From: Candidatus Angelobacter sp.
GTDB lineage: Bacteria > Chloroflexota > Dormibacteria > Aeolococcales > Aeolococcaceae
Direction: 5' to 3'
NCBI GenBank assembly: GCA_035569495.1
Contig: DATMMX010000047.1
Coordinates: 75,937 to 139,936, forward strand
DNA: 64,000 nt
The notes under the pieces are model-generated. The model searched no databases. It had not been told where the DNA came from and worked only from the letters and a program-made list of their open reading frames with translations. Positions 11,204 through 46,598 of the stretch are shown here, piece after piece; the first letter of the stretch is position 1, and each line of letters starts with the position of its first letter. Position numbers and translations under genes: made by a program.

Positions 11204-14176
11204 ATGAGCTTTCCCGCAACCTGGCAACCTCCCTCCGGCAGCGCACCGCCCGGCGGCGGCGGCGCCCGCGGCGCGGTGCGCGTCACCGAGCTGTCCCCGA
11301 CCTGCCTGCGCGTCGAGCTGACCCCGGCCGGCAACGCGTTCACGGAGGCGGCGACGCTGATGGTCCCGGTGCGGCTGCAGGGACGGCCACTGGAGGCTGG
11401 CGAGGAGGGCGCGGCGCGCCGTGTGTGGCGCTCGTCCTCGGGCGAGGTGGAGGTGGCGGTCGAGATCGGCGGGGCGCGTCCGCCCGGCCCCGGCGACGTC
11501 GAGGTGCGCTGGCGGCACGGTGGCGAGGCCGGCAGCTTCCGCGCCGACGACTCCGACCCCACCAACTTCCGTGGCACGGTCCGCTCCCTCGACGTGGTCG
11601 GCGGCCACAACCTGCCGGCGCTGCCGCCGTCGCTGCTCTCCCGGCGCGGCGCGGTGGTCATCGAGGACCGCAGCGCGCTGCTCGACCCCGGCGACGGCTT
11701 CCCCCGCCCGCGCCCGGTCGAGAACGGCGTCCACGACCTCTACGTCTTCGCCTACGGCCGCGACCACCGCACCGCCCTGCGCGACTGGATCGCCCTGACC
11801 GGTCGTCCCGCGCTGATCCCCCGCTACTGCTTCGGCCTCTGGTGGTCGCGCTATCACCCGCACACGCAGAGCGAATTCCTGGCCATCGTCGACCGCTTCG
11901 CCGCCGAGGGCATGCCCCTCGACGTGCTGGTGGTGGACGTCGACTGGCACCTGCACGGCTGGGAGGGCTACGACTTCGACCCGCGCTGCTTCCCCGACCC
12001 ACCGGCGTTCTTCGCGGCGCTGCGCGAACGGGGCGTCCACACCACCTTCAACGTGCACCCGCGCGGCGCCATCCAGCCGGAGGACAGCCACTACGCCGAG
12101 TGCGTGCAGCGCCTTCCCCCGGGCCGCGTCGAGCCGGGCGCGGGCGTGGGGCTCGACCTGGCCCGCGCCGCGGAGGCGCAGATCGGTGCGGACATGCGCC
12201 GCCCGCTGGAGGACATGGGCGTCGCCTTCTGGTGGACCGACGGCAACCACGCGCACCTCGCCGGCCTCGACCCGCAGATGGCCACCAACCACGCCTTCCA
12301 CGTCGCCGCCGCGCAGCGCCGGGACCGCCGCCCCGTGGTGTTCTCGCGCTACGGCGGCCACGGGTCGCAGCGCCACGGCATCGGCTTCAGCGCCGACACC
12401 CAGAGCCACTGGGAAGTTCTGGCCTACCTTGTCGATTTCACGGCGACCGCCGCCGACGAGGCGTTCGGCACGTGGTCGCACGACGTGGGCGGCTTCTTCG
12501 GGCGGCGGCTCGACGGCGAGCTGCTGCGGCGCTGGATGCAGGCGGCTCTGCTCTGGCCGGTGCTGCGTCTCCACTCCGACACCTTCGGCGAGCGCCTTCC
12601 CTGGGAGTACGACGGCGACGTGCTGGAGGCGGCGCGCACGGTGGCGACGCTGCGCCGGCGGCTGGTGCCGGCGCTGTACAGCCTGGCCCACGAGCTGCAC
12701 CGCACCGGGATGGCGCCGTACCGGCCGATGCACCTCGCCTTCCCCGACTGGGACGGCGCCGCGGAGGTGCGCGGGCAGGCGATGCTCGGCGACGCGCTGC
12801 TGACCGCACCGGTGGTCGAGCCGGCCCGCGAGCCCGGCGGCGTCTCGGTGCGCCGGGTGGTGCTGCCGCCCGGGGAGTGGCACGAGCTCGACGCGTCGCT
12901 GCACGGCGGGCGGCGGCTGCGCGGACCGGCTGTGCTCGACCTCCGCGTCGGGCCGCAGGAGATGCCGCTCTACGGGCGCGCCGGGGGCATCGTGGTGGAG
13001 CAGGACGCGGCGCGGCGCGGGGTCGACGGGCCGCCCGATCCGCTGATGGTCACCGTGTTCCACGGCGCCGACGGGAGCTTCGTGCACTACGACGACGACG
13101 GGATCACCCGGGCGCACGAGCAGGGCGCGGTGGCACTGACGCCGATCGTCTACGACAACGCGGGCGCCACGGTGCGGCTGGGGCCGGTCGAGGGCGACCG
13201 GTCGATGCTGCCCGAGGTGCGGCGCGTGGTGGTGCGGCTGGTCGGCGTCGACGGCGCACCAGGGGGACCGCCCGGCGGTCGCGAAGTTTCTGCCAGTTTC
13301 AACTGGAACCTGGCCGGCGGCTCGATCTCGATCGGCTTCCACGTCGCCGGCGTCGATCCGGCGCGTGAGGCCCAGCTCGACATGGCGGCGCGCATCCGCG
13401 ACGCGGTGCGGGCCGCGGAGGAGCAGGGGGCGGTGATCCAGGCCCGGCTCGACGGTGCGACCACCCCCGCCGGCGCGGCCGAGCGCATCCACGGTGCCCC
13501 CGTCACCGAGCCCGCGCGCAGCGAGGCCCTCATGGCGCTCACACGCGCCGCCGTCCACGTCCTGGTCGAGCACCGCGACGGGCGGCTCACACCGGTGGTC
13601 ACCGTGGCCCAGCCGGACATTCCCGGATACATCGCGGTCGCCGGCCGGCCCGATGCCGTCGACCTCGCACCTGGGCGCAACCACGACCTGCGCCATCACT
13701 CCTGGCCAGTGTCGCTGCGCCTGCTGCACGACGGCAAAACCGTCGCCGAGGTGGGGCGCACCTTGACCCAGGACCTCACCTACCTGCGTCTGCTCAGCGT
13801 CCGCAACGCCGGCGGCGAGTGGCAGCACCTCGGTGCGACGCTTGCACCGCATCCCCTCGACGAGCCGCAGGCGCGGATCGACCTCGAGCCGTTCGCCGGC
13901 GCGCCCATCGAGGTCGCGGCCGCGCTGCGCAGCGAAAGAGATCAGGAGGTGGTGCTGCGCTGCACCGAGAAGCTGGGCCTGCAGCTGCAGGTCAACGGAG
14001 AGGAGGTGGCGCTGCACGCGGAGCAGCACCGCAATCATCGCGACCGCCGCGCGGCCACGGTGCACCTGCGCGCCGGCGACAACACGATCCTGCTGCGCTG
14101 CGACGCGCCGGCGTACGACCACTTCATGGCCGTCCAGGTGAGCGCGCCCCACGGCGTGGAGGTGGTGCGCCCCTAA
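11204..14176 (+). CDS. Glycoside hydrolase family 31 protein (alpha-glucosidase/alpha-xylosidase superfamily), 990 aa
   Basis: The N-terminal beta-sandwich is followed by a (beta/alpha)8 core with GH31-like blocks (GRPALIPRYCFGLWWSRY…, MPLDVLVVDVDWHLHGWEGYDFDP, GVAFWWTDGN). C-terminal beta-domains follow. No signal peptide. Possibly a leaderless mRNA (no SD before ATG). Confidence 0.7.
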   Translation: MSFPATWQPPSGSAPPGGGGARGAVRVTELSPTCLRVELTPAGNAFTEAATLMVPVRLQGRPLEAGEEGAARRVWRSSSGEVEVAVEIGGARPPGPGDVEVRWRHGGEAGSFRADDSDPTNFRGTVRSLDVVGGHNLPALPPSLLSRRGAVVIEDRSALLDPGDGFPRPRPVENGVHDLYVFAYGRDHRTALRDWIALTGRPALIPRYCFGLWWSRYHPHTQSEFLAIVDRFAAEGMPLDVLVVDVDWHLHGWEGYDFDPRCFPDPPAFFAALRERGVHTTFNVHPRGAIQPEDSHYAECVQRLPPGRVEPGAGVGLDLARAAEAQIGADMRRPLEDMGVAFWWTDGNHAHLAGLDPQMATNHAFHVAAAQRRDRRPVVFSRYGGHGSQRHGIGFSADTQSHWEVLAYLVDFTATAADEAFGTWSHDVGGFFGRRLDGELLRRWMQAALLWPVLRLHSDTFGERLPWEYDGDVLEAARTVATLRRRLVPALYSLAHELHRTGMAPYRPMHLAFPDWDGAAEVRGQAMLGDALLTAPVVEPAREPGGVSVRRVVLPPGEWHELDASLHGGRRLRGPAVLDLRVGPQEMPLYGRAGGIVVEQDAARRGVDGPPDPLMVTVFHGADGSFVHYDDDGITRAHEQGAVALTPIVYDNAGATVRLGPVEGDRSMLPEVRRVVVRLVGVDGAPGGPPGGREVSASFNWNLAGGSISIGFHVAGVDPAREAQLDMAARIRDAVRAAEEQGAVIQARLDGATTPAGAAERIHGAPVTEPARSEALMALTRAAVHVLVEHRDGRLTPVVTVAQPDIPGYIAVAGRPDAVDLAPGRNHDLRHHSWPVSLRLLHDGKTVAEVGRTLTQDLTYLRLLSVRNAGGEWQHLGATLAPHPLDEPQARIDLEPFAGAPIEVAAALRSERDQEVVLRCTEKLGLQLQVNGEEVALHAEQHRNHRDRRAATVHLRAGDNTILLRCDAPAYDHFMAVQVSAPHGVEVVRP

Positions 14177-15885
14177 GCGCCCGGCCGCACCGTCACCACG
14201 ACGAGCGACGGGGTCGCCGGCCCGGTGCACAGCGTCTGCCGCGCGGCGCGCAGGTCCTCGCGCCGGTCCGTCCCCGGAGTCGCGCCGGTGCCCGCGTTGA
14301 CGTCGTAGCGCGGGAACGACGAGCTGCACACGTCGACGCGCAGGCGGTGTCCCGCCTCGACGCGGTAGGCGATGTTCCAGCAGTGCACAGGGAATCGCTC
14401 CACCGCGCCCCGGCGCAGCCGCGGCGTGCCCGGTCCGAAGCGGTGGCGTCCGCGCACGTACCCGTCGGTGATGTTGACCGCGCGTCCCGCCGCGTCGACG
14501 TCGAGCAGGCGGACGCAGACGTCGGTGTCGGCGGCGTCGGTGGCCAGCCAGATCGTCGCCACCACCGGTCCGGCCAGCTCCAGCGGCTCCCCCAGCGGAG
14601 GACCGGTGAACGAGCAGACGTCGGGCCGCGCGCCACCGCTGATGCCGTCCTGGTCCATCGGCCCGGCGGGCAGTCCCAGCGCCGGGCCACCGCGCGTTGG
14701 CACGGGATCCGAAGGGTCGTGCACCCACCACACCGCGCCGTCGTCATCGGGCCCGGCCACACCCAGCGACCCCGAGGACCGATCCGGCCCCGCCTGCAAA
14801 TACAGTGGCAGGGAGCGCACGCCCGGAGGCGGCCACGACGCCGCCTCGTCCCAGCGGTCCGCGCCGACGACGTAGTACGTCACCGGCGCCAGGTCGCGGG
14901 CGATGCCGCCGTCGCCGGCCAGCCACGACTGCGTCCACTCCACCAGCAGCGCGTCGTCGTACCTGCCGGCGTTGGGCGCGAGCGCGGTCAGCCCCGCGGG
15001 CGCCGGCGCGTGGCTGGTCGGCGCCATCACCAGCCGGTGCTGGGCGCCACCCGCCGCACCGCCCCGCTGCAACGCCGCGAACATGCTCACCTGGTCCTGC
15101 GCCCACAGGTCGTACCAGCCGCCGACGATCAGCACCGGCACGTCGAACGCGTCCTGCGCCGGCGGCCCCGGATCGCTCAGCCAGGTGTGGGTGAATGGCG
15201 CGGTGAAGAGTTCCTGCCAGGCGCGGCCAAAAAGCGGCGCCGCGGCGTACTCGGCGCGGTCGATCAGCGGCAGCCGTGACAGCGCGTGGTGCGCGCGCGC
15301 CGCCGCCACGTCGAGGCAGGGCAACCCGTCCGCCCCCACGCGCACCACCTGTTCGAACTCCAGCGCCAGCGCGTACAGCGCGCCGCGCGCGGCGTCGTGG
15401 GTGTCCGGCGCCTCCGCCGCCTGCCGCGGCATCCAGTGCGCCGCCAGGGACAGGCAGAGCGCGCCACCCTCGTGCATGGTCAGCGGCCGCCACCAGGCCG
15501 GGCACCGCGCAGGCGCGATGGCGCGCAGCCCCGCGGGCCGCGACCGCGCCGCGCGAAGCTGGGTCATCCCGGCGTAGGAGATGCCGTGCATGCCCACCGT
15601 CCCGTCGCACCACGGCTGCGCCGCCGCCCAGGCCACCGCCGCCGCGCCGTCGGCGCCGTCGCTCAACCCGAAGTCGAACACGCCGGATGACCCGCCCCGC
15701 CCGCGCACGTCCTGGGTCACCACCGCGACGGTGGCCGGGTTGCGGCCAAGGTTGACGTCAACCATCTCGAAGTCGACGCCGTAGGGGGTGCGGAACAGCG
15801 ACGCCGGCCACGGTCCCGCGCCGGACGGCGGCAGCCGCACCACCGTGTTCAGCCCGTCCACCCGCGCCCCGGCAGCGAGGCTCAC
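14173..15885 (-). CDS. CocE/NonD-family (S15, X-Pro dipeptidyl-peptidase-like) alpha/beta hydrolase
   Basis: Start taken at GTG whose GTGA overlaps the stop of the upstream lipoprotein gene. The N-terminal region is typical of the family (…VRLPPSGAGPWPASLFRTPYG…). The nucleophile region is AQPWCDGTVGMHGISYAGMTQ (GxSYxG). A C-terminal beta-sandwich domain is present. The first ~145 aa of the ORF-track frame (R/G-rich) are rejected. Confidence 0.7.
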   Translation of the reverse strand: MSLAAGARVDGLNTVVRLPPSGAGPWPASLFRTPYGVDFEMVDVNLGRNPATVAVVTQDVRGRGGSSGVFDFGLSDGADGAAAVAWAAAQPWCDGTVGMHGISYAGMTQLRAARSRPAGLRAIAPARCPAWWRPLTMHEGGALCLSLAAHWMPRQAAEAPDTHDAARGALYALALEFEQVVRVGADGLPCLDVAAARAHHALSRLPLIDRAEYAAAPLFGRAWQELFTAPFTHTWLSDPGPPAQDAFDVPVLIVGGWYDLWAQDQVSMFAALQRGGAAGGAQHRLVMAPTSHAPAPAGLTALAPNAGRYDDALLVEWTQSWLAGDGGIARDLAPVTYYVVGADRWDEAASWPPPGVRSLPLYLQAGPDRSSGSLGVAGPDDDGAVWWVHDPSDPVPTRGGPALGLPAGPMDQDGISGGARPDVCSFTGPPLGEPLELAGPVVATIWLATDAADTDVCVRLLDVDAAGRAVNITDGYVRGRHRFGPGTPRLRRGAVERFPVHCWNIAYRVEAGHRLRVDVCSSSFPRYDVNAGTGATPGTDRREDLRAARQTLCTGPATPSLVVVTVRPGA

Positions 15886-16328
15886 GTGCACCCCGCGGTG
15901 GAGCAGGTGCGCAGCAGGTCGAGCGTGACATGGCCGTCGCCCCCGCACCAGTCCGGCGCGGATGGGCCCGGCGATACGCAGGGGATCGCCGTCGGGGTCG
16001 GACCGCCGGGCGCCTTCCAGATGTCGCAGTGCAGCGAGCGTCCCGCCTCGGCGGCGACGCATTGCCAGTCGGTGTACGACCTGCCCCCGTCGCTGCTGAT
16101 GACGAACTCGCCGGTGCTGGTCGGGTCGGGGAGCCGGGTGTCGCGCCCGTCCACCTGGACGGCGCCGGTGTTGACCGAGAGCGTCACCGGGGTGCCGCTG
16201 GGCAGCGTCCCCGAGTACGTCCCCGCCGCCAGCGAGGCCGCACCGGCCTGGGTGGAGCCGCACGCGCCGAGCGCGCCGCAGCAGGCGAGCACCGCCAGCG
16301 CCGCCGCCACGCCGCGCACGCGCCACAT
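15882..16328 (-). CDS. Small Cys-rich lipoprotein (hypothetical, 148 aa)
   Basis: The signal/lipobox is MWRVRGVAAALAVLACCGALGACGS. The mature part has 8 Cys (…WQCVAAEAGRSLHCDIW…CVSPGPSAPDWCGG…LRTCSTAGCT). The ATG shares one base with the upstream stop (TGATG), and the stop overlaps the downstream GTG start (GTGA). The ORF-track upstream extension is wrong-frame garbage. Confidence 0.55.
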   Translation of the reverse strand: MWRVRGVAAALAVLACCGALGACGSTQAGAASLAAGTYSGTLPSGTPVTLSVNTGAVQVDGRDTRLPDPTSTGEFVISSDGGRSYTDWQCVAAEAGRSLHCDIWKAPGGPTPTAIPCVSPGPSAPDWCGGDGHVTLDLLRTCSTAGCT

Positions 16329-17440
16329 CACGGCAGCGGCGCCGGAGTGACTGAGGACAGCGTCGCCGACCCGTCGAGCGCGAAGGGGGCGCCGGCGAGG
16401 GTGCTCTGGGGCTGCGCCGCCGCCGTCCACTGCACGATCAGCCCGCCCAGCCCGGTGGCCACGGCATAGGTGACCTTTTCGGTGAGGTTGGTGGTCGCCG
16501 GCGCCGTGCCCGACGCGGTGCTCACCTGGGTGGCCACCAGGGTGATGGTGGCCTGCACCTGCCAGGCGTCCACCGGGGTGCCGCAGGCGTTGACCCGGAT
16601 GCGGCCGAGGTCGGTGGCGTCGATGGTCATGGCGGTGCCGGTCACCGGATCGGTCTGCGAGTCCTTCCAGGTGCCGGTGGTGCCGGGCGTCCCCGGGTTG
16701 TTGGGGTCGGGCTGGTACTGCGACGCCTGCGCCGCGGGAGTGCTGAGCAGGGTCAGCGCCGCCGCCGGCTTGAAGACGACCGCCCCACCCGGCACCGGGA
16801 TCGACAGCCCCGCCAGCGCGAAGCGCGAGGTTGGCGAGACCAGCGGGGTGCTCGGCTGCGCGCTGGAGTTGGTGGCGGCGTACTCGCCGGCGGAGTCCGG
16901 GAAACCGAGCACGGCGCCGGCCTCGGTGAAGCCGAAGCTGCCCTGGGCGGGCTGGGTGACGGCGCTCACCGTGCCGGTCGTCGCGGCGGCGAGGGGTGCG
17001 GCGGGGGCGCCACCGCGCGTCACGTTGCCCGTCTGCAGGAACGCCCAGCGGCCGGCGGTGGCGGCGTCGCTCACCTCGGTGGTGGCCGCGGCGGCCGAGG
17101 GCTTGAGCGGATCGAGCGGCGGGCACGCCAGGTCGTCGGGCGGGGGCGGCGGCAGCACGAACCCGGTCCCGTGCGGAATGGGCAATGCTGCCGGCACCGC
17201 GAGCTGAGGCACGCTGTACACGGGCAGCGCCTCGGCCAGTGGGGCGGGTGCGGGCGCTCCGGGGCGGGGCGCCTCCGGCAGCGGCCGGGTGCCCACGGTG
17301 ATGCTGAGCGGCACGTTCTTCATGCCGAGCTGCACCTGCACGGAGGGGCCGCAGCCGGTGGCCAGCAGAGGGAGCGCGGCGGCCAGGGGCAGCGCCAGGG
17401 CGCGGCCGTCGGCGCGAAAGGCGGCGGCGAGGCGGATCAT
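16328..17440 (-). CDS. Lipoprotein, Pro/Ala/Thr-rich (hypothetical, ~370 aa)
   Basis: Internal ATG (MIRLAAAFRADGRALALPLAAALPLLATGCGPS; lipobox LATGC) overlaps the stop of the upstream gene (ATGA). It has a proline-rich linker (PLPEAPRPGAPAPAPL…PPPPPDD) and then a T/A/G-rich beta-rich region. No recognisable catalytic motif. Confidence 0.5.
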   Translation of the reverse strand: MIRLAAAFRADGRALALPLAAALPLLATGCGPSVQVQLGMKNVPLSITVGTRPLPEAPRPGAPAPAPLAEALPVYSVPQLAVPAALPIPHGTGFVLPPPPPDDLACPPLDPLKPSAAAATTEVSDAATAGRWAFLQTGNVTRGGAPAAPLAAATTGTVSAVTQPAQGSFGFTEAGAVLGFPDSAGEYAATNSSAQPSTPLVSPTSRFALAGLSIPVPGGAVVFKPAAALTLLSTPAAQASQYQPDPNNPGTPGTTGTWKDSQTDPVTGTAMTIDATDLGRIRVNACGTPVDAWQVQATITLVATQVSTASGTAPATTNLTEKVTYAVATGLGGLIVQWTAAAQPQSTLAGAPFALDGSATLSSVTPAPLP

Positions 17441-17946
17441 CGTCCCTCCTGGAATCGGACCAGTGCGCCCAGGAAGGCCTGGGGGTCCTTGAGCTGGTTG
17501 CTGACGGTGAGCACCTCGAAGACGCCCGGATTGCGGTCGGGGAACCAGACGAAGAGGTGCACGTCGGGCCGGACCTGGTCGGCGACCCACTGGCCGGCCA
17601 CCCGGTAGTAGCGGTAGGAGCCGCTGCCGAGCTGCTTGCGGATGTCGTGCTGGACGTCGACGTCGGTGGTGTCCAGGTCGGCGCGCAGCGTGGCCACCTG
17701 GAGCGCGGCGTAGACGGCGCCCTGGGCGCGCAGGGTGTACAGCCGTCCCTGGTCGACCTGGGTGCGGGGCACGTCGAAGCCGGAGCGGGCGTCGGTCTCC
17801 TCGTGCACCGTGTAGCCGTCGACCGCCGCCGGGAGGATGCGCGAGGGGAGCTGCGGCGTGGTGGCGGCCACCGCGCTGCCGCAGGCGGCCAGCGCGGCGC
17901 CGGCGAGCAGGGCGAGCGGGGCGAACAGCAGGCGCGGCGCCCTCAC
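17437..17946 (-). CDS. Lipoprotein (hypothetical, ~169 aa)
   Basis: GTG start (VRAPRLLFAPLALLAGAALAACGS; lipobox LAAC) overlaps the TGA of the transglutaminase gene (GTGA). The mature part is …YTVHEETDARSGFDVPRTQVDQGRLYTLRAQGAVYAALQVATLRADLDTTDVDVQHDIRKQLGSGSYRYYRVAGQWVADQVRPDVHLFVWFPDRNPGVFEVLTVSNQLKDPQAFLGALVRFQEGR, with normal composition and no known domain. Confidence 0.5.
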   Translation of the reverse strand: MRAPRLLFAPLALLAGAALAACGSAVAATTPQLPSRILPAAVDGYTVHEETDARSGFDVPRTQVDQGRLYTLRAQGAVYAALQVATLRADLDTTDVDVQHDIRKQLGSGSYRYYRVAGQWVADQVRPDVHLFVWFPDRNPGVFEVLTVSNQLKDPQAFLGALVRFQEGR

Positions 17947-20213
17947 GCGAAGCGCCTCCGCAGCACCCGCGCCCGCCGTCGCGAGCGAGCCGCGCCCGCC
18001 ACCGGAGCGGGCCACGGGTTGGGCAGGCTGCGATCGTACGGCTCGCGCAGCGACGCCCGCGACGACAGGGCGAGCACCCGGGTCAGCCAGGGCTGCCCCC
18101 TGGAGAGCCGTCGCCGCAGCGAGGCACCCATCTCCCGCGCCGCCGCCACGTCCTCGGCCTGCAGGTCACGGGCCAGGTCGCCCCAGAGCGCGCGGGTGAC
18201 CAGCCAGGCGTACTCCTCGTGCTCCTCGTCGGGGCTGAGCCGGTCGAGGAACTCGAGGGGGGTGGACCAGGGGTCGCCGGCGCGCAGGTCGCCGGCCAGG
18301 TCGCGGAACTCCGCGTACTCGACGGCGATCTCGGCTGCGGCCCCGAACGCCCGGGCGTGGCGGCGCCGCCTGCGCCCGCGCCAGAGCTTGAGCGGCCAGG
18401 GGAAGAACATCACCAGCACGGCGGCGGCGACGCCGATGGGGGCGAGCACGGCCAGCCACCAGCGCACCACCTGGTAGAGCAGCAGCGCCGAGCTGGCGTC
18501 GGTGGGCACGTAGAGCTGCAGCGACACCTCCTCGGCGGGGTGGATCAGCGGGCTGTGGTTGGCCGGGTTGGCGTCGAGCGGGGAGACGGCGTGGGCCGGG
18601 ACGCCGATCACCGGCACCCAGCCGTAGCCCTCGAAGTACACCTCGGCCCAGTTGGCGCCGTGCCGCGGACGCAGCTCGACGCCGCCGCCCGGGACGGGGT
18701 CGCCACCGTAGAAGCCGTAGCCGAGCCGGGCGGGCAGCCCCGCCCAGCGGGCCAGCAGCACCTGGGCCGCGGCGATCTCGTAGGGCGACGCCCTGCCGCC
18801 GGCGAGCATGGCCACCACCCGCGACGGCGGGGTCGGCCCGGGCACGCCGGGACCGGCGGCGACGACGTGGTCGTAGAGCGCCTGGCGCAACGCCTGGAGA
18901 CGGTCCCACGGGTTGCGCGGCGCGTTGTCGAGGAGGTGGCGCACCTCGTCCGGGGCGGCGGGGATCCAGGTGTCGTCAGGGTTGACGCCGCGCGGGCTGC
19001 CTGCGGCCGACAGGTCCTGCGCGCTGGGCGGCTTCTCGCCGCTGACCGTGTAGGTGAAGGCGCCGGTCGGCGCGGCGGGCAGCATCAGCGCGCCGCTGCG
19101 CGGGTCGTACTGGGCGCGGCCGCCCTGCAGGTTGACGTGGGTCGCGCCCGCCGGGGCGGGCAGCACGCGCTGTTCGGGGTCGACCACCGTGACGGTGTAG
19201 TCCTGGGTCGCGCCCTTCAGGGTGGTCAGCGGCTGGTCACCGGCGACGTTGACCAGCCGGGAGGGGTCGTAGGGCGGCAGCAGGAAGTCGCTGCCGTCGT
19301 AGCTGTCCAGCTCGCCGAGGCGCCAGGGGCCGGAGAGGTCGCCGGGACCCCGGACCCTGGCGATGGCCCGGTCCTTGACCTGGTCGGGCGGGACCACCTG
19401 GGGCTTCTGCGGGGGGAGGGCGCGGGTGGCCACCGCGGCGGGGAAGAGGAAGCTCGAATGGTTGAGCACGACCAGGGCGACCAGGGCGAGGGCGAGGGCG
19501 CCGGCCCCGCGCAGGGAGCGGCGCAGCTCGAAGCCGCGACTGCCGCCGCTGCCGCCCAGCTCGGCGGCGTAGAGCACCATCAGTCCGGCGACCACCAGCA
19601 CCAGCGAGACGCCGGCGCCGAGCACGCCGCCGTCCGGGGGCTGGAGCAGGGCGCCGGCGAGCACCACGGGGAGGGGCAGGGCGAGGGCAAGCCGGGGCCG
19701 GGACGTGTTGAGCACCAGCGTCGCGGTGGCGGCGGCGAGCAGGATGCAGAGAGCGACCAGCACGAACCGCCAGCCGGCATCGAAGGGCACGGGGGGCTGG
19801 AGCAGGCCGCCGCCGCTGACCGCGGACTGCACCGCTTCGAGGGGGGAGACGCGGCTGTCGGTGGCGACGCTGACCAGGGAGGCGGCGACGAAGGCGGCCG
19901 GAAGCAGGGCGAGGCCGGCGACGCCGGGGCGGCGGGAGCGGGCGACGGCGGCGGCCGCGGCGACGCCGAGGGCGGCGCAGGCCAGGGCCAGGGGGCGGGC
20001 CTGCGGCGAGTCGAAGACGCCGCCGAGCATCCAGGCGGCGGCGGCGCTGCTGAGCAGGGCGGCCAGGCAGGCGCGGCGCACGGAGAGTGTGGGCTCTGCG
20101 TCGTCGCCGGGCGTGGCCACCGGGACCGGAAAAGCGGCGGGCACCCCCGCAGCGGCTTGGTGGTCGGGCCCGGCAACGGGAACGGAGGTTTTCGCGGGCG
20201 GCTCGACGATCAT
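17943..20213 (-). CDS. Transglutaminase-like (TgpA-type) membrane protein with C-terminal DUF4129-like region
   Basis: ATG (MIVEPP…) overlaps the DUF58 stop (ATGA). Six N-terminal TM helices are followed by the transglutaminase core (…ASPYEIAAAQVLLARWAGLPARLGYGFYGGD…HGANWAEVYFEGYGWVPV; the ASPYE Cys-position is degenerate here). A further TM helix and an acidic/Arg-rich tail follow. Confidence 0.65.
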   Translation of the reverse strand: MIVEPPAKTSVPVAGPDHQAAAGVPAAFPVPVATPGDDAEPTLSVRRACLAALLSSAAAAWMLGGVFDSPQARPLALACAALGVAAAAAVARSRRPGVAGLALLPAAFVAASLVSVATDSRVSPLEAVQSAVSGGGLLQPPVPFDAGWRFVLVALCILLAAATATLVLNTSRPRLALALPLPVVLAGALLQPPDGGVLGAGVSLVLVVAGLMVLYAAELGGSGGSRGFELRRSLRGAGALALALVALVVLNHSSFLFPAAVATRALPPQKPQVVPPDQVKDRAIARVRGPGDLSGPWRLGELDSYDGSDFLLPPYDPSRLVNVAGDQPLTTLKGATQDYTVTVVDPEQRVLPAPAGATHVNLQGGRAQYDPRSGALMLPAAPTGAFTYTVSGEKPPSAQDLSAAGSPRGVNPDDTWIPAAPDEVRHLLDNAPRNPWDRLQALRQALYDHVVAAGPGVPGPTPPSRVVAMLAGGRASPYEIAAAQVLLARWAGLPARLGYGFYGGDPVPGGGVELRPRHGANWAEVYFEGYGWVPVIGVPAHAVSPLDANPANHSPLIHPAEEVSLQLYVPTDASSALLLYQVVRWWLAVLAPIGVAAAVLVMFFPWPLKLWRGRRRRRHARAFGAAAEIAVEYAEFRDLAGDLRAGDPWSTPLEFLDRLSPDEEHEEYAWLVTRALWGDLARDLQAEDVAAAREMGASLRRRLSRGQPWLTRVLALSSRASLREPYDRSLPNPWPAPVAGAARSRRRARVLRRRFA

Positions 20214-21481
20214 CGGCGGATGCCCGCGCCGCCGCCGAACACCGCCGCCAGCGGCGTGCGCGGCCGCAGCTGCACCACCTGGCACCCCAGCGCCGCCGCA
20301 TGGGCCAGCGCGGTCGGATCGCTCTCCTCCCACACCAGCACCACCAGCACCACGTAGGCGCCCTGGTCGACGAGCAGCTTCAGCCGGGTCGCGGCGCGGT
20401 CGTCCACGTGCGGGGTCACCACCACGTGGTGCACGTCGCGGCGCACATTGCGCACCACCCGCTCGACCACGGTCTGCAGCGGCTCGGCCTCGCGCTGCAC
20501 CCGGGCCATGGCATCGAGCAGGTTGGTCTGGTCGCGCACCCCGCGGAGCGAGGGCGCCAGCGTCGCGCCGTTGGTCTCGACACTGACCGCGAAGCCGTCC
20601 CTGAGGTACCGCAGGCCCAGCGACGCCGCCGTCCGCACCGCCGCCTCGAAGGTGTCGCTGGGGTCGCCCGGGCTGTGGTGGCGGGAATCGGTGTCGAGGA
20701 CGATGGCGACGCGGTCGGTGATGCCCTGCTCGAACTCGCGGACCATCATCCGGCCGGTGCGGGCCACGGCGCGCCAGACCACGCGGCGCAGGTCGTCACC
20801 GGGCGTGTAGCGGCGCATGCCGTAGAACTCGAAGCCGCTCGGCCATGGCTTGGAGACCGGTGGCCGCACCGGCGGGTCCTCCCACTGGCGGGTGAGCGGC
20901 GTGTCCTGCACGCCCTCGGTCTGCGGGTGGACGAGGATCTCGCCGGCCTCGGCGACCACCACCTCGCGCCGGGTGAAGCCGAACGGGTCGCTCCAGATCG
21001 CGGTCAGCGGGCCCACCTCGTAGACGCCGCGGAGCTGCGGGGTCATCGCGTAGCGGTAGGTGGCGTCGCGTCCGGGGGCGACGGACTCGAGCTGGATGCG
21101 GCGGCTGCGGCCGAGGTGGGGATGCAGCTTCTCCTCCAGCACCAGCCCGGTGACCCGGCGGCGCGAGCTGAAGGTCAGCTCGACGTCGACGAGCTGGCCC
21201 TGGCGGACGCGCGTGGGCAGCTCGCTGCGCACGGCGTCGAGCGCCTGGCGCTGCCGGCCCAGCCACCAGGCCAGGGCGAGCACCACCAGTCCGCCGTAGA
21301 CCAGCAGGTAGAGGGTGCGGCTGCCCAGCAGCCGGGCGAGCAGCCAGCCGGCCACGGCGCCGCCGACGAGCATGGCGCCGCCCGCGGTCAGGCCGGTGCG
21401 CGCCAGCACGCGGGCGAGCGTGGGCACCTCGAAGCGCCAGGAGGGGCGCCACGGCGGGCGGCGGCTGCGGATGGCCTGCAT
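20210..21481 (-). CDS. DUF58-domain protein (VWA-like, MoxR partner)
   Basis: Two N-terminal TM helices are present. The core …GFEFYGMRRYTPGDDLRRVVWRAVARTGRMMVREFEQGITDRVAIVLDTDS… is characteristic of DUF58 proteins encoded next to MoxR ATPases. There are 7 nt between the MoxR stop and this ATG. Confidence 0.75.
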   Translation of the reverse strand: MQAIRSRRPPWRPSWRFEVPTLARVLARTGLTAGGAMLVGGAVAGWLLARLLGSRTLYLLVYGGLVVLALAWWLGRQRQALDAVRSELPTRVRQGQLVDVELTFSSRRRVTGLVLEEKLHPHLGRSRRIQLESVAPGRDATYRYAMTPQLRGVYEVGPLTAIWSDPFGFTRREVVVAEAGEILVHPQTEGVQDTPLTRQWEDPPVRPPVSKPWPSGFEFYGMRRYTPGDDLRRVVWRAVARTGRMMVREFEQGITDRVAIVLDTDSRHHSPGDPSDTFEAAVRTAASLGLRYLRDGFAVSVETNGATLAPSLRGVRDQTNLLDAMARVQREAEPLQTVVERVVRNVRRDVHHVVVTPHVDDRAATRLKLLVDQGAYVVLVVLVWEESDPTALAHAAALGCQVVQLRPRTPLAAVFGGGAGIRR

Positions 21482-21487
21482 GGGTGC

Positions 21488-22516
21488 CTAGCCGAGCGCC
21501 GCGAGGGCCTCGGTGCCGCGGACCAGCCGCTGGGGGGGCGCCGAGCTGCTGACCAGCGGCGGCTTGACCCGGCCGACCACGCGCTCCAGCACCTTGTCGA
21601 CACTCTCGCCGCGGAGCTGCGCCTCGGGGCTGAGGATGAGGCGGTGGCTCATCACCGGGTGGAGCAGCGCTTTGACGTCGTCCGGATACACGTCCTCCCG
21701 CCCCTGGCTGGCGGCGAGGACGCGCGCCGCCCAGAGCAGCGACAGCGAGGCGCGCGGGCTGGCCCCGAGGGTGAGCGCGGCGTCGTGGCGGGTGGCCTGG
21801 ACGATGTCGATGGCGTAGCGCAGCACCGGCTGGGCGACGGTCACCCCGCTGGCCCACTCGATCATCGCCACCACCTCGGGCAGGTCGACCATCGGCTGCA
21901 GCCGGTCGATGGCGGGCTGGCGGCCGTTGGCCATCAGCACCTCCTCCTCCGCCTCCGCCGACGGGTAGCCGATCGAGAGCTTGAAGAGGAAGCGGTCGAG
22001 CTGCGCCTCGGGGAGCGGGAAGGTCCCGGCCAGCTCGATGGGGTTCTGCGTGGCCAGCACCAGGAACGGCCGCGGCAGCGCGTGGGTGGTGCCCTCGACG
22101 GTGACGGTGCGCTCGGCCATGGCTTCGAGCAGCGCACTCTGCGTCTTCGGCGTCGCGCGGTTGACCTCGTCGGCGAGCAGGATGTTGGCGAACACCGGGC
22201 CGGGGCGGAAGGTGAAGGTCATCCGCGCCTGGTCGAGGATGCTGCTGCCGGTGATGTCGCCGGGCAGCATGTCGGGGGTGCACTGGATGCGGCCCACGTC
22301 GGCGTTGACGGTGCGCGCGATCGAGCGGGCGAGCATCGACTTGCCGACGCCGGGCGCGTCCTCGAGGAGCAGGTGTCCCTCGGCGAACATCGCCACCAGG
22401 GCCATGTGGACGACGTCGCCCTTGCCCTTGATCACCCGTTCGACGTTGGCCTGGATCTCCTCGAAGCGCCGGGTGAAGCGCTGCGCATCCATGGGCGGCA
22501 GGGCGGGAAGTGGCAT
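21488..22516 (-). CDS. MoxR-family AAA+ ATPase
   Basis: ATG with GGAGGAG upstream. Walker A is LLEDAPGVGKSMLARSIA and Walker B is FANILLADEVNRATPKTQSALLEAMAE (sensor/arginine finger context). The conserved MoxR C-terminal helical domain is present. The ORF-track extension to 24940 is read-through in another frame of the upstream gene. Confidence 0.9.
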   Translation of the reverse strand: MPLPALPPMDAQRFTRRFEEIQANVERVIKGKGDVVHMALVAMFAEGHLLLEDAPGVGKSMLARSIARTVNADVGRIQCTPDMLPGDITGSSILDQARMTFTFRPGPVFANILLADEVNRATPKTQSALLEAMAERTVTVEGTTHALPRPFLVLATQNPIELAGTFPLPEAQLDRFLFKLSIGYPSAEAEEEVLMANGRQPAIDRLQPMVDLPEVVAMIEWASGVTVAQPVLRYAIDIVQATRHDAALTLGASPRASLSLLWAARVLAASQGREDVYPDDVKALLHPVMSHRLILSPEAQLRGESVDKVLERVVGRVKPPLVSSSAPPQRLVRGTEALAALG

Positions 22517-22542
22517 GGGGATCTCTTTCTCCTCCAACGGAA

Positions 22543-25592
<3,050 letters not shown>

Positions 25593-25596
<4 letters not shown>

Positions 25597-27842
25597 CGCC
25601 GCACCCCCACCGGCGCCGGCGGCCGCCGGTCGAGGCGGTAGCGCCGGGGCACGAACGCGGTTGCCCCACCGGCGAGGCGCTTGGGCGCGAGCTGCGCACG
25701 CCCGTCGCCGGACACACCGCCGCGCGAGTAGGCGGCCACCTCGACGTGGTACCGGTCGGCGACGCGCCGCAGGAACGCGTCGCGGATCGCCGCCACCACC
25801 TGGGCGACGCCGCCCGGCCGCGACAGCAGCAGCACGATCACCGCGGCCGCCAGCACCGCCGAGCTGCCCGCCCCGGCGTCGACCAGGTTGGTCGCCAGGG
25901 CCAGGAAGAGCACGCCGAGGAAGGGACCGGCCACCGCGCCGAGCCCGCCGACCACGGTCATGAGGAACAGCTTCTCGCTGAGCTCGGGGGTGAACCCGCC
26001 GCTGCCCGCCCCGCCGATCTGGTACGCGAACACGCCGCCGGCCAGCGCGGCGAGGAAGCCGCTGATCACGAACGCCTGCAGCCGGGCGCGGGTGAGGTTG
26101 ACGCCGAAGGCCTGGGTCGCCTGCTCGTTCTCCCGGCTGGCGATCAGCGCGCGGCCGGTGCGGCTGCGGCGCATCCCGGTCACCGCCACGGCGCAGGCGG
26201 CGGCGATGGCGAGGACCAGGTAGTAGAGGACGCGCTCGTCGCTGCCCTGCAGGCCGAGCACGCTGGGGCGGTCGAGGCTGCTCGGGATCAGCGTCGCGCC
26301 GAGCTTCTGGCCGAAGAGCAGCGACTGGGCCAGCTCGGCGAAGGCCAGGGTGGTGATGGCCAGGTAGAGGCCGCGGATGCGCAGCGCGGGCAGCCCGACG
26401 ATCAGCGCGGTGACCGCTCCCGCCGCCGCGCCGGGGGGGACGGTGAGCCAGAACGGGAGATGTGCGCTGCCCGCCAGCGCCGAGGCCACCCAGGCGCCCA
26501 CCGCGGCGAGGCCGAACTGGCCGAGGCTGATCTGGCCGGCCCAGCCGGAGAGCACCAGCAGGCTGAGGCCGACGATGCCGTAGGTGATCAGCTGCCCCGC
26601 CTCGCCGGTGCCGCCCGGGGAGAGCACCCAGGGCAGGGCGAGCACGGCGACGGCGACGCCGCCGACGGTGAGGCGGCGCATGCGGCGCACGGGGGGCAGG
26701 TCGCGGAGCGCGGGCGGGATGGGGCGGGTCTCCCTGCTGGTCGCCCAGGCGCCCGCCGCGGCGGCGAGGCGGCCGGTGAGCTCCCTGGGCCGGAGCAGCA
26801 GGACGCCGACGATCACCCCGAAGAGCACCAGGTCGCGCACGCCCTGGTCGACGTTGCCCGCGATCACCGCCTGCTGGAGCACCCCGAGCACCACGGCGGC
26901 GAGCGCGGCGAGGGGCAGGCTGTCGAGGCTGGCCACCACGGCGGCGGCGAGGATGGTCACCAGCACCGGCACCGGCACGCCACCGGCGCCGCCGACGCCG
27001 GTGCTCATGCTGTCGAGCACCGCGGCGAGGCCGCTGAGCAGACCGGCGACCGTCCACACCAGCGCCTGCACCCCGACGGGGCCGATGCCCAGGCTGCGGG
27101 CGCGGTCCTCGTTGTCGGCGGCGGCGCGGATGGCCCGGCCCAGGCGGGCGCGGCGCAGGAAGACCACGATCAGGCCGAGGGCGAGCAGGGTGACGCCGAC
27201 GGTGAGCAGCGAGCCGAAGTTGAGCACCACCGCGCTGCCCAGGTGGAGGCTCGCCTGCACCGGCGGGCGGGTGTCGGGCGGGGCGGCGCCGAGGCCGGGG
27301 GTGTCGCCGTCGAACTGCTTGGCGACGAGCTCGGCGGCGTAGGTCAGCACGGTGGCGGCGGCGAGGGTGGCGACGGTGCCGACCAGGCGGCTGGCCCTGG
27401 CCAGCGGCCGCATCAGCCCGAAGTAGAGGACGAGGGCGAGCAGCGGCGCGAGCAGGATCGTGCCCACCGCGGCCAGCCCGTACTCGGTGGCCGCGGCGCC
27501 GCTCGACGCCGGGCAGCCGTCGCAGCCGAGGCCCAGGCCGCGGAGAATGGCGTGGTGCCGGACGATCTCGCCGAAGAGCACGGCGGTGATCGCGCCGACC
27601 TGCACCTGGGCGAGGTTGACCACCCGGCTGCTGCGGTAGACGAGCACCACGCCCATCGCCTGCAGGGCCAGGCTGCAGCCGGCGACCACGCCGAAGCCGA
27701 GCACGGCCGTCCGCTGCGTGGCGGTGGCCATGACCATGATGAACAGCACGGCGAGCACAGCCGTCGACACCACGGTGGTGCGCTGCAGCAGAGCCCCGGC
27801 CTGACGGCGCCGCGACGTCCACACGGCGGTCACGCGAGCCAC
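25593..27842 (-). CDS. Fused LivH/LivM-type branched-chain-amino-acid (HAAT family) ABC transporter permease (749 aa)
   Basis: GTG start. The N-terminal half is LivH-like and the C-terminal half LivM-like, both polytopic with the conserved permease loop (…RENEQATQAFGVNLTRARLQAFVISGFLAALAGG…). Confidence 0.8.
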
Positions 27843-45847: not shown

Positions 45848-45848
45848 C

Positions 45849-46592: not shown

Positions 46593-46598
46593 GTCAGC

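What the first reader, a model, noticed from the sequence alone, without database searches (positions are those of the whole stretch)
14173..27842. Nine-gene translationally coupled operon linking an SBP-less Liv-type ABC system, an MFS-ABC fusion, a MoxR-DUF58-transglutaminase triad, three orphan lipoproteins and a CocE/NonD hydrolase
All nine genes are on the minus strand. Gene order is LivHM permease, MFS-LivF-LivG fusion, MoxR AAA+, DUF58/VWA, TgpA-like transglutaminase, lipoprotein A, lipoprotein B, Cys-rich lipoprotein C, CocE/NonD S15 hydrolase. Seven of the eight junctions are 1- or 4-nt start/stop overlaps (ATGA at 25593-25596 and 20210-20213; GTGA at ~17943-17946 and 15882-15885; TGATG at 16326-16330; ATGA at 17437-17440). 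The other is a 26-nt gap with an RBS. The MoxR-DUF58-TgpA triad is widespread but functionally obscure. Here it is embedded between transporter components and secreted proteins plus a peptidase-family hydrolase. The transporter lacks any substrate-binding protein. I do not know a described system with this composition. Co-translation of all nine suggests one envelope-associated machine: transport plus ATP-dependent remodelling plus a transglutaminase/protease-like enzyme plus lipoprotein partners plus hydrolase.
Basis: partly seen in the sequence, partly recalled or inferred. Interest (0 to 1): 0.85.

Follow-up and report, generated by a model that had tools for sequence, protein, structure and literature searches.

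The report
ABC importer welded to MoxR–pseudo-transglutaminase module
The nine-gene operon is real, and its core (a binding-protein-dependent Liv-type ABC importer fused to an MFS domain, plus a MoxR ATPase, a DUF58 protein, a catalytically dead TgpA-like membrane protein and lipoproteins) is a conserved, often multi-copy gene module in soil Actinomycetota and Dormibacterota that I could not find described in the literature I searched.

Summary

Corrections:
- Six, not seven, junctions overlap. The other two are gaps of 6 and 26 nt.
- The transporter is not SBP-less. Its cognate 573-aa Peripla_BP_6 protein is at 35444-37165.
- The TgpA-like protein has lost the Cys-His-Asp triad (Pro/Ala/Ile instead), as has its whole clade.
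- 'Lipoprotein A' is a split-off C-terminal domain that is fused to TgpA in most relatives.
- The S15 hydrolase is a cytoplasmic CocE-like enzyme found only in the closest subclade.

Main result: in 48 of 48 related loci with enough flank, the TgpA-like gene sits with the LivHM permease and the ABC ATPase gene (MFS part detected in 44). MoxR and DUF58 are present in 47 of 48. Two gene orders occur, and some genomes carry up to five paralogous loci. Flanking genes are variable catabolic enzymes.

Best reading: a substrate-specific uptake module whose importer depends on a MoxR/DUF58/pseudo-TgpA/lipoprotein accessory complex. The role of that complex is inferred, not shown. My literature searches found no description of this combination.

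The parts
27932..27961 (-). Only sigma-70-like promoter match in 13800-28200 (TTGACG, 18 nt spacer, GAGAAT). It lies in the AT-rich 132-nt intergenic region upstream of g1.
   Evidence: 1 site found against 0.2 expected. One search gives the intergenic sequence. This is a consensus match only.
25593..27842 (-). g1: fused LivH-LivM type permease (749 aa, about 14 predicted TM segments).
   Evidence: BPD_transp_2, two stretches, E 1.5e-50. LivH 51-358, LivM 386-680. TM segments. Present in 48 of 48 complete related loci.
22543..25596 (-). g2: MFS domain (about residues 50-480) fused to LivF/UrtE-like and LivG/UrtD-like ATPase domains (1017 aa).
   Evidence: many of the closest MFS relatives are proteins of about 1000-1060 aa with the MFS at the N-terminus; present in 48 of 48 loci, 44 with the MFS part.
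21488..22516 (-). g3: MoxR-type AAA+ ATPase (342 aa). Walker A, Walker B and the LATQNP motif are conserved across 60 homologues. GGAGGAG lies 12 nt upstream of the start. An alternative GTG start is at 22546.
   Evidence: (AAA_3 E 7.6e-61, AAA_lid_2).
20210..21481 (-). g4: DUF58 protein (423 aa) with two N-terminal TM segments. The position expected for a MIDAS motif reads DTDSRHHS rather than DxSxS.
   Evidence: DUF58, 47.5 bits; TM segments; clade consensus.
17943..20213 (-). g5: TgpA-like polytopic membrane protein (756 aa). Layout: N-terminal TM bundle, ectodomain about residues 252-576 with a transglutaminase-fold core (433-535) that lacks Cys, His and Asp, one further TM, then a conserved Arg-rich C-terminal domain predicted to be cytoplasmic.
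   Evidence: A1: invariant P477 and E479 where the Cys motif should be; alignment to P. aeruginosa TgpA 6g49. The ATG at 20213 is supported by the conserved N-termini in A1.
17437..17946 (-). g6: lipoprotein A (169 aa, lipobox LAAC). It is a free-standing copy of the Mog1/PsbP-like domain that forms the C-terminus of the 900-1000 aa TgpA homologues.
16328..17440 (-). g7: lipoprotein B (370 aa). About 100 residues of low-confidence Pro/Ala-rich linker are followed by an all-beta domain (residues 104-370).
15882..16328 (-). g8: Cys-rich lipoprotein C (148 aa, 9 Cys). Restricted to the closest subclade.
   Evidence: Present in 1 of 48 complete loci.
14173..15885 (-). g9: cytoplasmic CocE/NonD-family serine hydrolase (570 aa). 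The nucleophile Ser, Asp and His motifs line up with cocaine esterase. No signal peptide. Subclade-specific cargo.
   Evidence: TIGR00976, 300 bits; full-length alignment to CocE, E 7e-53: GISYAG/GVSYLG, GWYD, TSH/WSH.
35444..37165 (-). Cognate substrate-binding protein (573 aa, N-terminal TM anchor, Peripla_BP_6). It is the first gene of a separate SBP-GH35-h248-PhyH operon (31922-37165).
   Evidence: Peripla_BP_6, 36.4 bits; 28-33% identity, E 3e-52 to 1e-73, to the proteins that adjoin the permease in L006, L007 and L008; an SBP homologue is within 10 kb in 33 of 48 loci.

Best explanation
The locus encodes one member of a conserved, modular family of substrate-uptake systems.

The engine is a binding-protein-dependent HAAT/Liv-type ABC importer. 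It consists of a membrane-anchored Peripla_BP_6 SBP, a LivH-LivM fused permease, and LivF-LivG fused ATPases that carry an N-terminal 12-TM-class MFS domain.

This importer is obligatorily paired with an accessory complex that spans the membrane. Inside the cell are the MoxR AAA+ ATPase, the membrane-anchored DUF58 adaptor, and the conserved C-terminal domain of the TgpA-like protein. Outside are the catalytically dead transglutaminase-fold ectodomain, its Mog1/PsbP-like domain (here the separate lipoprotein A) and lipoprotein B.

I infer that the ectodomain/lipoprotein assembly acts as a non-catalytic docking or capture platform for the substrate or the SBP. I also infer that MoxR and DUF58 assemble or gate the transporter complex using ATP, as MoxR-VWA pairs do for other complexes. 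The imported compound would then be degraded by the variable cytoplasmic enzymes encoded alongside. In this lineage those are the CocE-like hydrolase g9, GH35, GH31/GH13 and PhyH dioxygenases.

Shown: gene content, the genetic linkage, loss of the catalytic triad, domain fission, and predicted topology.
Inferred: import direction (from SBP dependence), the physical complex, and the role of MoxR/DUF58/TgpA.
For: LINKAGE. Of 48 loci with at least 8 kb of flank, 48 have g1, 48 have g2, 47 have MoxR, 47 have DUF58 and 33 have an SBP homologue. The same gene set occurs in two orders: ABC genes upstream in 49 loci (plus 4 partial) and downstream of TgpA in 11. This argues for functional rather than accidental linkage.

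IMPORTER. Hits are to LivH/LivM and LivF/LivG. The orthologous SBP adjoins the permease in L006, L007 and L008.

NUTRIENT-LOCUS PATTERN. The 80 loci come from 60 assemblies, and 12 assemblies carry 2-5 paralogous loci. Of 130 co-directional neighbouring proteins, the matched families are variable catabolic or binding types: SBP_bac_5 (12), short-chain dehydrogenases, alpha/beta hydrolases, PhyH, esterases, amidohydrolases, AMP-ligases, GH3 and a rhamnosidase. In the window, all glycosidases and g9 lack signal peptides.

DIVERGENCE GRADIENT across distant loci. Cytoplasmic engine parts are conserved: LivF 65%, MoxR 61%, LivG 58%, TgpA C-terminal domain 53%, DUF58 50%. Substrate-facing parts diverge: SBP 31%, MFS 30%, LivH 33%, N-terminal ectodomain 34%, lipoprotein A 28%, lipoprotein B 26%.

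PSEUDOENZYME. An invariant Pro replaces the nucleophile Cys. Ala or Ser replaces His. A hydrophobic residue replaces Asp.

SINGLE TRANSCRIPTION UNIT. There is one promoter-like site upstream of g1 and no credible internal terminator. The junctions are overlapping or very short.
Against: - No experiment or structure links any MoxR-DUF58-TgpA triad to transport.
- In P. aeruginosa the triad stands without an ABC system, and its TgpA is catalytically competent (PMC3507681).
- The substrate is unknown. HAAT systems classically take amino acids, urea or amides, yet the neighbours here are mostly glycosidases.
- The role of the fused MFS domain is unexplained.
- The pseudo-transglutaminase core is strongly conserved (54%) although it is predicted to be extracellular. 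This fits a constant partner or a new active site better than substrate-specific capture.
- Only 33 of 48 loci show the SBP at tblastn sensitivity.
- The promoter and terminator scans are weak evidence in a genome of 73% G+C.
Confidence: 0.45

Rival explanations
1. It is a cell-envelope biogenesis or remodelling machine. The ABC/MFS unit moves an envelope precursor. The TgpA-like scaffold and the lipoproteins attach or organise it outside the membrane. MoxR and DUF58 drive assembly. This is essentially the first reader's 'one envelope machine'.
For: P. aeruginosa TgpA is essential and was proposed to act on the cell wall (PMC3507681). Lipoproteins A and B and the ectodomain are predicted to be extracytoplasmic. 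Lipoprotein A has the fold of mycobacterial envelope proteins LpqN and TiME. In mycobacteria a moxR-DUF58 operon lies next to ripA/ripB (PMC12067865).
Against: SBP dependence and Liv-type architecture indicate import. Up to five paralogous copies per genome with variable catabolic neighbours is not typical of core envelope machinery. The transglutaminase triad that would perform cross-linking is absent. No peptidoglycan or lipid biosynthesis genes were among the families most often matched by the co-directional neighbours.
Confidence: 0.15
2. It is a sensor or signalling device. The SBP, ectodomain and lipoproteins sense an external ligand. The pseudo-TgpA transmits the signal across the membrane. 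MoxR and DUF58 switch the activity of the transporter, or of the MFS domain, on and off. In this reading the accessory complex is regulatory and not part of the transport path.
For: Lipoprotein A resembles the PknH extracellular sensor domain. The related bifidobacterial PFNA cluster couples MoxR-DUF58-TGM to a Ser/Thr kinase and a ligand-binding FN3 protein (PMC8430577, PMC6803598). The TgpA C-terminal domain is strongly conserved and predicted to be cytoplasmic (53%). No transcription factor is encoded in the operon.
Against: There is no kinase, response regulator or nucleotide cyclase in the core set. Nine stoichiometrically coupled genes is a costly way to build a switch. No precedent is known to me.
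Confidence: 0.15
3. It is only a co-regulated operon. The importer, the MoxR triad and the hydrolase are functionally independent modules that share a promoter.
For: g8 and g9 are lineage-specific add-ons. In this window the SBP is in a different operon. Overlapping junctions are the genome's general style.
Against: 48 of 48 co-occurrence across two phyla, two gene orders and TgpA identities of about 35-46% is very hard to obtain without functional dependence. This TgpA clade was not seen without the ABC genes in any locus with enough flank.
Confidence: 0.1
4. It is a MoxR-vWA type conflict or defence system of the kind proposed for Actinobacteria.
For: The bpMoxR Pfam model gives a weak hit to g3 (E 2.7e-8). 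The loci are multi-copy and have variable neighbourhoods.
Against: There are no PADLOC hits for g3-g8. There is no beta-propeller or effector domain. The neighbours are catabolic enzymes and SBPs. AAA_3 scores far higher than bpMoxR.
Confidence: 0.03

Closest known systems
P. aeruginosa PA2875 (MoxR) - PA2874 (DUF58) - PA2873 (TgpA) operon
   Same: The MoxR-DUF58-TgpA order is the same. TgpA_N polytopic N-terminus, a large external domain with a transglutaminase-fold core, and co-transcription are shared (PMC3507681; the profile hit to PDB 6g49 is).
   Different: Here the Cys-His-Asp triad is replaced by Pro, Ala/Ser and a hydrophobic residue across the whole clade. The triad is always next to a Liv-type ABC importer with an MFS fusion, an SBP and lipoproteins. 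An extra Mog1/PsbP-like C-terminal domain or split lipoprotein is present.
LivJ/K-LivHMGF (HAAT family) and UrtABCDE ABC importers
   Same: Two BPD_transp_2 permease domains, LivG- and LivF-like ATPases, and a Peripla_BP_6 binding protein.
   Different: The permeases are fused. The two ATPases are fused to each other and to an N-terminal MFS transporter domain. The SBP is about 570 aa with a TM anchor and has no close solved relative. The system is obligatorily linked to MoxR/DUF58/TgpA. All scores are far below the equivalog cut-offs, so the substrate cannot be transferred from these families.
Bifidobacterial PFNA cluster (pkb2-fn3-aaa_atp-duf58-tgm)
   Same: It is an actinobacterial operon with MoxR-type ATPase, DUF58 and a transglutaminase-like membrane protein next to a surface ligand-binding protein (PMC8430577, PMC6803598).
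   Different: There is no Ser/Thr kinase and no FN3 gene in the core here. An ABC importer and lipoproteins take their place.
MoxR-VWA chaperone pairs (RavA-ViaA, NorQ-NorD, CbbQ-CbbO, Bat operon)
   Same: An AAA+ MoxR protein is encoded next to a VWA-related adaptor. This is the basis for inferring an ATP-driven assembly or remodelling role. That inference rests on established knowledge of the family and on the review PMC12067865.
   Different: The DUF58 partner here has a non-canonical sequence at the MIDAS position. The presumed client, an ABC/MFS transporter or the TgpA scaffold, would be new.
Rhodococcus cocaine esterase CocE / CocE-NonD hydrolases
   Same: g9 aligns over its full length with the catalytic Ser, Asp and His motifs conserved. 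It passes TIGR00976.
   Different: The substrate is unknown. It occurs in this module only in the closest subclade.

Membership tests
HAAT (Liv/Urt-type) ABC importer | Two BPD_transp_2 (LivH and LivM type) membrane domains | tested here: met
   (two stretches, E 1.5e-50). (LivH 51-358, LivM 386-680).
HAAT (Liv/Urt-type) ABC importer | LivF- and LivG-type ATP-binding cassettes, including the LivG C-terminal BCA_ABC_TP_C motif | tested here: met
   (LivF/UrtE 490-727; LivG/UrtD 754-1004). (BCA_ABC_TP_C 982-1005).
HAAT (Liv/Urt-type) ABC importer | Cognate Peripla_BP_6 substrate-binding protein | tested here: met
   It is not in the operon but at 35444-37165. It is orthologous to the SBPs adjoining the permease in L006, L007 and L008.
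HAAT (Liv/Urt-type) ABC importer | Transport of branched-chain amino acids or urea | not testable with these tools
   Scores are far below the equivalog cut-offs. Most neighbours are glycosidases.
MoxR (MRP subfamily) AAA+ with DUF58/VWA partner | AAA_3 ATPase core plus AAA_lid_2, with Walker A and Walker B intact | tested here: met
MoxR (MRP subfamily) AAA+ with DUF58/VWA partner | Adjacent DUF58 gene | tested here: met
   Present in 47 of 48 loci.
MoxR (MRP subfamily) AAA+ with DUF58/VWA partner | Canonical MIDAS motif (DxSxS) in the VWA-like partner | tested here: inconclusive
   The clade consensus at the expected place is lDtD...HSpG. No structure-based alignment was made.
TgpA-type bacterial transglutaminase (PA2873) | TgpA_N polytopic N-terminal domain plus a Transglut_core domain in an external loop | tested here: met
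   (39.5 and 42.5 bits, both above cut-off). (TM pattern).
TgpA-type bacterial transglutaminase (PA2873) | Cys-His-Asp catalytic triad | tested here: not met
   Cys position: an ungapped match places an invariant Pro477 (motif SPYEI) 15 residues before the G of GLPAR. That is where the factor XIII motif GQCWVF...GIPAR, recalled from memory and not retrieved here, has its Cys. His position: TgpA 'DAHAW' aligns to 'GANW', so His becomes Ala. Asp position: it is hydrophobic in all 18 sequences of A1. The P. aeruginosa triad is reported conserved in PMC3507681.
TgpA-type bacterial transglutaminase (PA2873) | Transglutaminase activity | not testable with these tools
   Predicted absent from the residue changes.
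Bifidobacterial PFNA cluster | Ser/Thr kinase (pkb2) and an FN3 protein next to MoxR-DUF58-TGM | tested here: not met
   No Pkinase or fn3 domain in g1-g9. Neither is among the 25 families most often matched by the co-directional neighbours.
MoxR-vWA-beta-propeller ternary conflict systems | bpMoxR-type ATPase with a beta-propeller or effector partner, or defence-system models | tested here: not met
   bpMoxR gives only 33.6 bits against 204 bits for AAA_3. No PADLOC hits for g3-g8. No propeller gene.
CocE/NonD (S15) hydrolases | TIGR00976 above cut-off and a Ser-Asp-His triad | tested here: met
   (300 bits against a cut-off of 66). (alignment to CocE).

The most novel reading that the evidence does not exclude
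This would be a new class of ABC importer in which transport requires a transmembrane accessory machine. In that reading a cytoplasmic MoxR AAA+ motor acts through DUF58 and the cytoplasmic domain of a pseudo-transglutaminase. It drives conformational work in an extracellular platform (the dead TGase fold, the Mog1/PsbP-like domain and lipoprotein B). That platform captures, unfolds or hands over a bulky substrate to the SBP and permease. The fused MFS domain would move a co-substrate or product. If so, this would give the first physiological function for a MoxR-DUF58-TgpA triad.
Probability: 0.15. Interest if true: 0.85.

Novelty: new variant of a known kind. Interest (0 to 1): 0.65.

Why it matters
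MoxR-DUF58-TgpA triads are widespread, and TgpA is essential in P. aeruginosa, yet they have no known function. Here one clade of them is tied, without exception in the loci examined, to a defined and assayable partner: an SBP-dependent ABC importer. At least two carriers are cultured (Jiangella asiatica, Actinopolymorpha sp.). That turns a 'function unknown' triad into a testable hypothesis about transporter assembly, gating or substrate capture.

The locus also shows three further things:
- a pseudoenzyme lineage of the transglutaminase fold under strong constraint;
- an unusual MFS-ABC ATPase fusion;
- a PUL-like, multi-copy organisation of uptake loci in abundant but poorly studied soil phyla.

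Tried and rejected
- Sequence search of g5 against PDB found nothing. Only a profile reached TgpA 6g49, and the alignment starts after the Cys region. The Cys position therefore rests on an ungapped motif comparison.
- The SBP has no solved relative by sequence.
- The Foldseek AFDB library was unavailable.
- The exact-sequence look-up of P0001 failed, so the source contig was not retrieved.
- NCBIfam gave no specific family for the MFS domain, h248, DUF58, TgpA, the lipoproteins or the SBP.
- Defence-system reading rejected.
- An internal terminator at 18411-18426 was rejected. It has 5 pairs, lies inside g5, and the count is no higher than in shuffles.
- My simple GC3-based gene caller failed on lower-GC loci such as L043. 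Linkage statistics therefore rest on tblastn.
- I considered that the glycosidase, S15 and PhyH neighbours point to Hyp/Pro-rich plant glycopeptides as the substrate. I kept this only as speculation because nothing tests it.

Full report
WHAT IS IN THE SEQUENCE

The window is about 73% G+C. Nine minus-strand ORFs between 14173 and 27842 show the coding signature of such genomes (GC3 0.93-0.98, GC1 > GC2). They fill the interval almost without gaps. The block is delimited by a divergent GH31/alpha-amylase fusion gene (27975-31949, +) and a convergent GH31 gene (11204-14176, +).

The junctions are as follows:
- g1/g2: ATGA overlap
- g2/g3: 26-nt gap with GGAGGAG; an alternative GTG at 22546 would overlap
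- g3/g4: 6-nt gap
- g4/g5: ATGA overlap
- g5/g6: GTGA overlap
- g6/g7: ATGA overlap
- g7/g8: TGATG (1-nt overlap)
- g8/g9: GTGA overlap

That makes six overlaps, not seven. The only sigma-70-like promoter match in 13800-28200 lies in the AT-rich spacer upstream of g1 (27961-27932). The single terminator-like hit is a weak 5-bp stem inside g5. Overlapping junctions are common here. The neighbouring SBP-GH35-h248-PhyH operon has them too. They therefore support co-transcription but are not unusual in themselves.

DOMAIN ASSIGNMENTS

- g1 is a LivH+LivM fusion.
- g2 is an MFS domain followed by LivF/UrtE-like and LivG/UrtD-like cassettes.
- g3 is a MoxR AAA_3 ATPase with its lid domain. Its Walker motifs are conserved across 60 homologues.
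- g4 is a DUF58 protein with an N-terminal TM hairpin.
- g5 has TgpA_N and Transglut_core.
- g6, g7 and g8 have N-terminal hydrophobic stretches ending in a Cys that I read by eye as lipoboxes (the g7 motif LATGC is non-canonical), and no Pfam or NCBIfam family.
- g9 is a CocE/NonD hydrolase. It aligns end to end with cocaine esterase with Ser, Asp and His conserved. It has no signal peptide.

CORRECTION 1: THE TRANSPORTER IS NOT SBP-LESS

A 573-aa TM-anchored Peripla_BP_6 protein is encoded at 35444-37165 on the same strand. It is 28-33% identical over nearly its full length (E 3e-52 to 1e-73) to three proteins in related loci. One lies immediately upstream of the permease in Actinopolymorpha (L007). 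One lies between the ATPase and permease genes in L008. One is divergent from the permease in L006.

In relatives L004 and L011, the GH35-h248(-PhyH) genes that follow the SBP in this window lie directly upstream of g1 on the same strand. The window therefore looks like a larger ancestral locus that was split by the oppositely oriented GH31-amylase gene.

CORRECTION 2: THE 'TRANSGLUTAMINASE' IS A PSEUDOENZYME

In an alignment of 18 homologues at 38-88% identity (A1), the segment before GLPAR reads xSPYEIxAA. Pro477 and Glu479 are invariant. An ungapped comparison with the transglutaminase active-site motif (factor XIII [22 protein letters not shown], recalled from memory, not retrieved here) puts the nucleophile Cys on that Pro.

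A profile of A1 matches P. aeruginosa TgpA (PDB 6g49). It aligns TgpA 'DAHAW' with 'GA[NT]W', so the catalytic His is Ala or Ser here. The Asp after GW..x is hydrophobic in all 18 sequences. P. aeruginosa TgpA has the intact triad and shows activity in vitro (PMC3507681). Membership of the catalytic TgpA family therefore fails on its defining feature, although the fold and the operon context are shared.

CORRECTION 3: LIPOPROTEIN A IS A DETACHED TgpA DOMAIN

Most homologues are 900-1000 aa long. After the C-terminal domain that g5 shares, they carry one more hydrophobic segment and a domain that aligns with g6 (A1 columns about 900-1100). The tblastn match of g6 falls inside the TgpA ORF of L004.

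Lipoprotein B has a low-confidence linker of about 100 residues and a confident all-beta domain. Structural matches to that domain are weak.

CONSERVATION: THE KEY RESULT

Contexts of TgpA homologues at 72, 52 and 49% identity keep the same gene order from permease to S15 hydrolase. Homologues at about 40% identity in MAGs labelled Mycobacteriales and in Actinopolymorpha sp. keep SBP, permease, MFS-ABC, MoxR, DUF58, TgpA and lipoprotein B, but not g8 or g9.

A scan of one genome per species returned 149 relatives. The best 80 loci come from 60 assemblies. Their labels include Acidimicrobiales, Mycobacteriales, Frankiales, Jiangella, Actinopolymorphaceae, Nitriliruptorales and Dormibacterota.

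Counts among the 48 loci with at least 8 kb on both sides:
- g1: 48
- g2: 48 (44 including the MFS part)
- MoxR: 47
- DUF58: 47
- SBP: 33
- g6: 22
- g7: 13, plus 26 more loci (among all 80) with divergent homologues found by clustering
- g9: 2
- g8: 1

Two gene orders exist: ABC genes upstream in 49 loci (plus 4 partial) and downstream of TgpA in 11. Twelve assemblies have 2-5 paralogous loci.

The 130 co-directional neighbouring proteins most often match SBP_bac_5, short-chain dehydrogenases, alpha/beta hydrolases, PhyH, esterases, amidohydrolases, AMP-ligases and glycosidases.

The MFS domain's closest relatives among 1.8 billion representatives are largely proteins of about 1000-1060 aa with the same N-terminal placement.

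INTERPRETATION

The conserved unit is SBP + LivHM + MFS-LivF-LivG + MoxR + DUF58 + pseudo-TgpA (with its Mog1/PsbP-like domain) + lipoprotein B.

SBP dependence and Liv-type architecture argue for import. Multi-copy occurrence with variable cytoplasmic catabolic neighbours argues for substrate-specific nutrient loci.

Across distant loci, the cytoplasmic engines are conserved: LivF 65%, MoxR 61%, LivG 58%, TgpA C-terminal domain 53%, DUF58 50%. The substrate-facing parts diverge: SBP 31%, MFS 30%, LivH 33%, N-terminal ectodomain 34%, lipoprotein A 28%, lipoprotein B 26%. The pseudo-TGase core is an exception. It is predicted to be external yet is 54% conserved, which suggests a constant partner or a non-canonical site.

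Predicted topology puts MoxR, DUF58 and the TgpA C-terminal domain inside the cell. It puts the pseudo-TGase domain, lipoproteins A and B, and the SBP outside.

I therefore favour a trans-membrane accessory complex that assembles, gates or feeds the importer. MoxR and DUF58 would act as the ATP-driven chaperone and adaptor, by analogy with other MoxR-VWA pairs (family knowledge; PMC12067865). In this subclade g9, GH35, GH31/GH13 and PhyH would be cytoplasmic cargo enzymes. Everything beyond the linkage, the residue changes and the topology is inference.

Rivals are listed separately: envelope biogenesis, signalling, mere co-regulation, and defence. Defence is disfavoured by the absence of PADLOC hits for g3-g8.

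COMPARISON WITH KNOWN SYSTEMS AND NOVELTY

The closest described systems are the P. aeruginosa PA2875-PA2873 operon (PMC3507681) and the bifidobacterial PFNA cluster (PMC8430577, PMC6803598). Neither contains an ABC importer or lipoproteins A and B. PFNA's kinase and FN3 genes are absent here.

Six of the seven full-text searches combined MoxR, DUF58, TgpA or transglutaminase, Liv-type ABC, MFS fusion and Dormibacterota terms. They found no description of this combination. The seventh retrieved the TgpA paper. The library does not cover most subscription journals.

I rate it a new variant of known kinds (a HAAT importer plus a MoxR-DUF58-TgpA triad) rather than categorically new. Interest is 0.65, because it offers the first consistent functional partner for an enigmatic triad and can be tested in cultured strains.

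Noticed in passing
window 31922-37165 (-): A second tightly coupled operon: SBP (35444-37165), GH35 (33504-35447), an unknown 248-aa protein (32761-33507) and a PhyH dioxygenase (31922-32764), all joined by 4-nt overlaps. In relatives L004 and L011, GH35-h248(-PhyH) lie directly upstream of the permease on the same strand. Here the oppositely oriented GH31-amylase gene (27975-31949) seems to have split one larger locus.
   Followed up: partly
A1 columns about 880-910 (long TgpA homologues such as P0021, P0034, P0064, P0106): Nine of the ten long homologues keep a lipobox-like L-x-[GA]-C motif at the end of the extra hydrophobic segment, just before the Mog1/PsbP-like domain. This is internal to a polytopic membrane protein. 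It could mean cleavage and lipidation by signal peptidase II of a fused protein, or it could be a relic of the gene fusion.
   Followed up: no
window 43130-47828 (-): A separate, conventional Liv-type system: Peripla_BP_6 SBP (46599-47828), LivF-like ATPase (45849-46592) and an unusual triple fusion LivH-LivM-LivG (43130-45847, 905 aa). It is followed by two FAA-hydrolase genes, a PhyH gene and a CMD-family gene.
   Followed up: partly
window 11204-14176, 27975-31949, 37221-39482 (all +): Three GH31 paralogues, one of them fused to a GH13 alpha-amylase domain. The two whose N-termini I checked have no signal peptide; the third was not checked. At least three PhyH-family dioxygenase genes are also present (10330-11661, 31922-32764, 40539-41390). 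This is an unusual concentration of probably cytoplasmic glycosidases around a Liv-type importer.
   Followed up: partly
window 14173-14176 and 31922-31949: Convergent genes overlap at their 3' ends. GH31 and g9 overlap by 4 nt, and GH31-amylase and PhyH by 28 nt. This leaves no room for terminators between the convergent transcription units.
   Followed up: no
L043 and L072 (same contig, JAHWKU010000002.1): Two TgpA-like modules lie about 16 kb apart on one contig. The second has its own SBP, permease and MFS-ABC genes, but no MoxR or DUF58 was detected within 10 kb. One MoxR/DUF58 pair may serve two modules.
   Followed up: no
L018, L024, L025, L032, L047, L049, L059, L064 (about 1000-2500 in each): In eight loci, mostly labelled Acidimicrobiales, a conserved protein of about 330-400 aa lies just upstream of the permease (in L018, the one locus whose gene map I read, between the SBP and the permease). 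I did not identify it.
   Followed up: no
window, whole (taxonomy): Proteins identical to g5 and g7 are labelled 'Candidatus Angelobacter sp.' (Acidobacteriota) at NCBI. Relatives at 70-86% identity are labelled Dormibacterota or 'uncultured Actinomycetes'. The taxonomic label of the source MAG is doubtful.
   Followed up: partly
loci L007, L015, L022, L035, L041, L054, L055 and others, about 13.6-16.5 kb: A family-5 solute-binding protein (SBP_bac_5) follows lipoprotein B in these loci (12 genes in 11 loci; L007 has a second copy two genes further on). In the loci whose gene maps I read (L006, L007, L054) no matching PepT-type permease was nearby. This could be a second, orphan binding protein recruited to the module.
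   Followed up: partly
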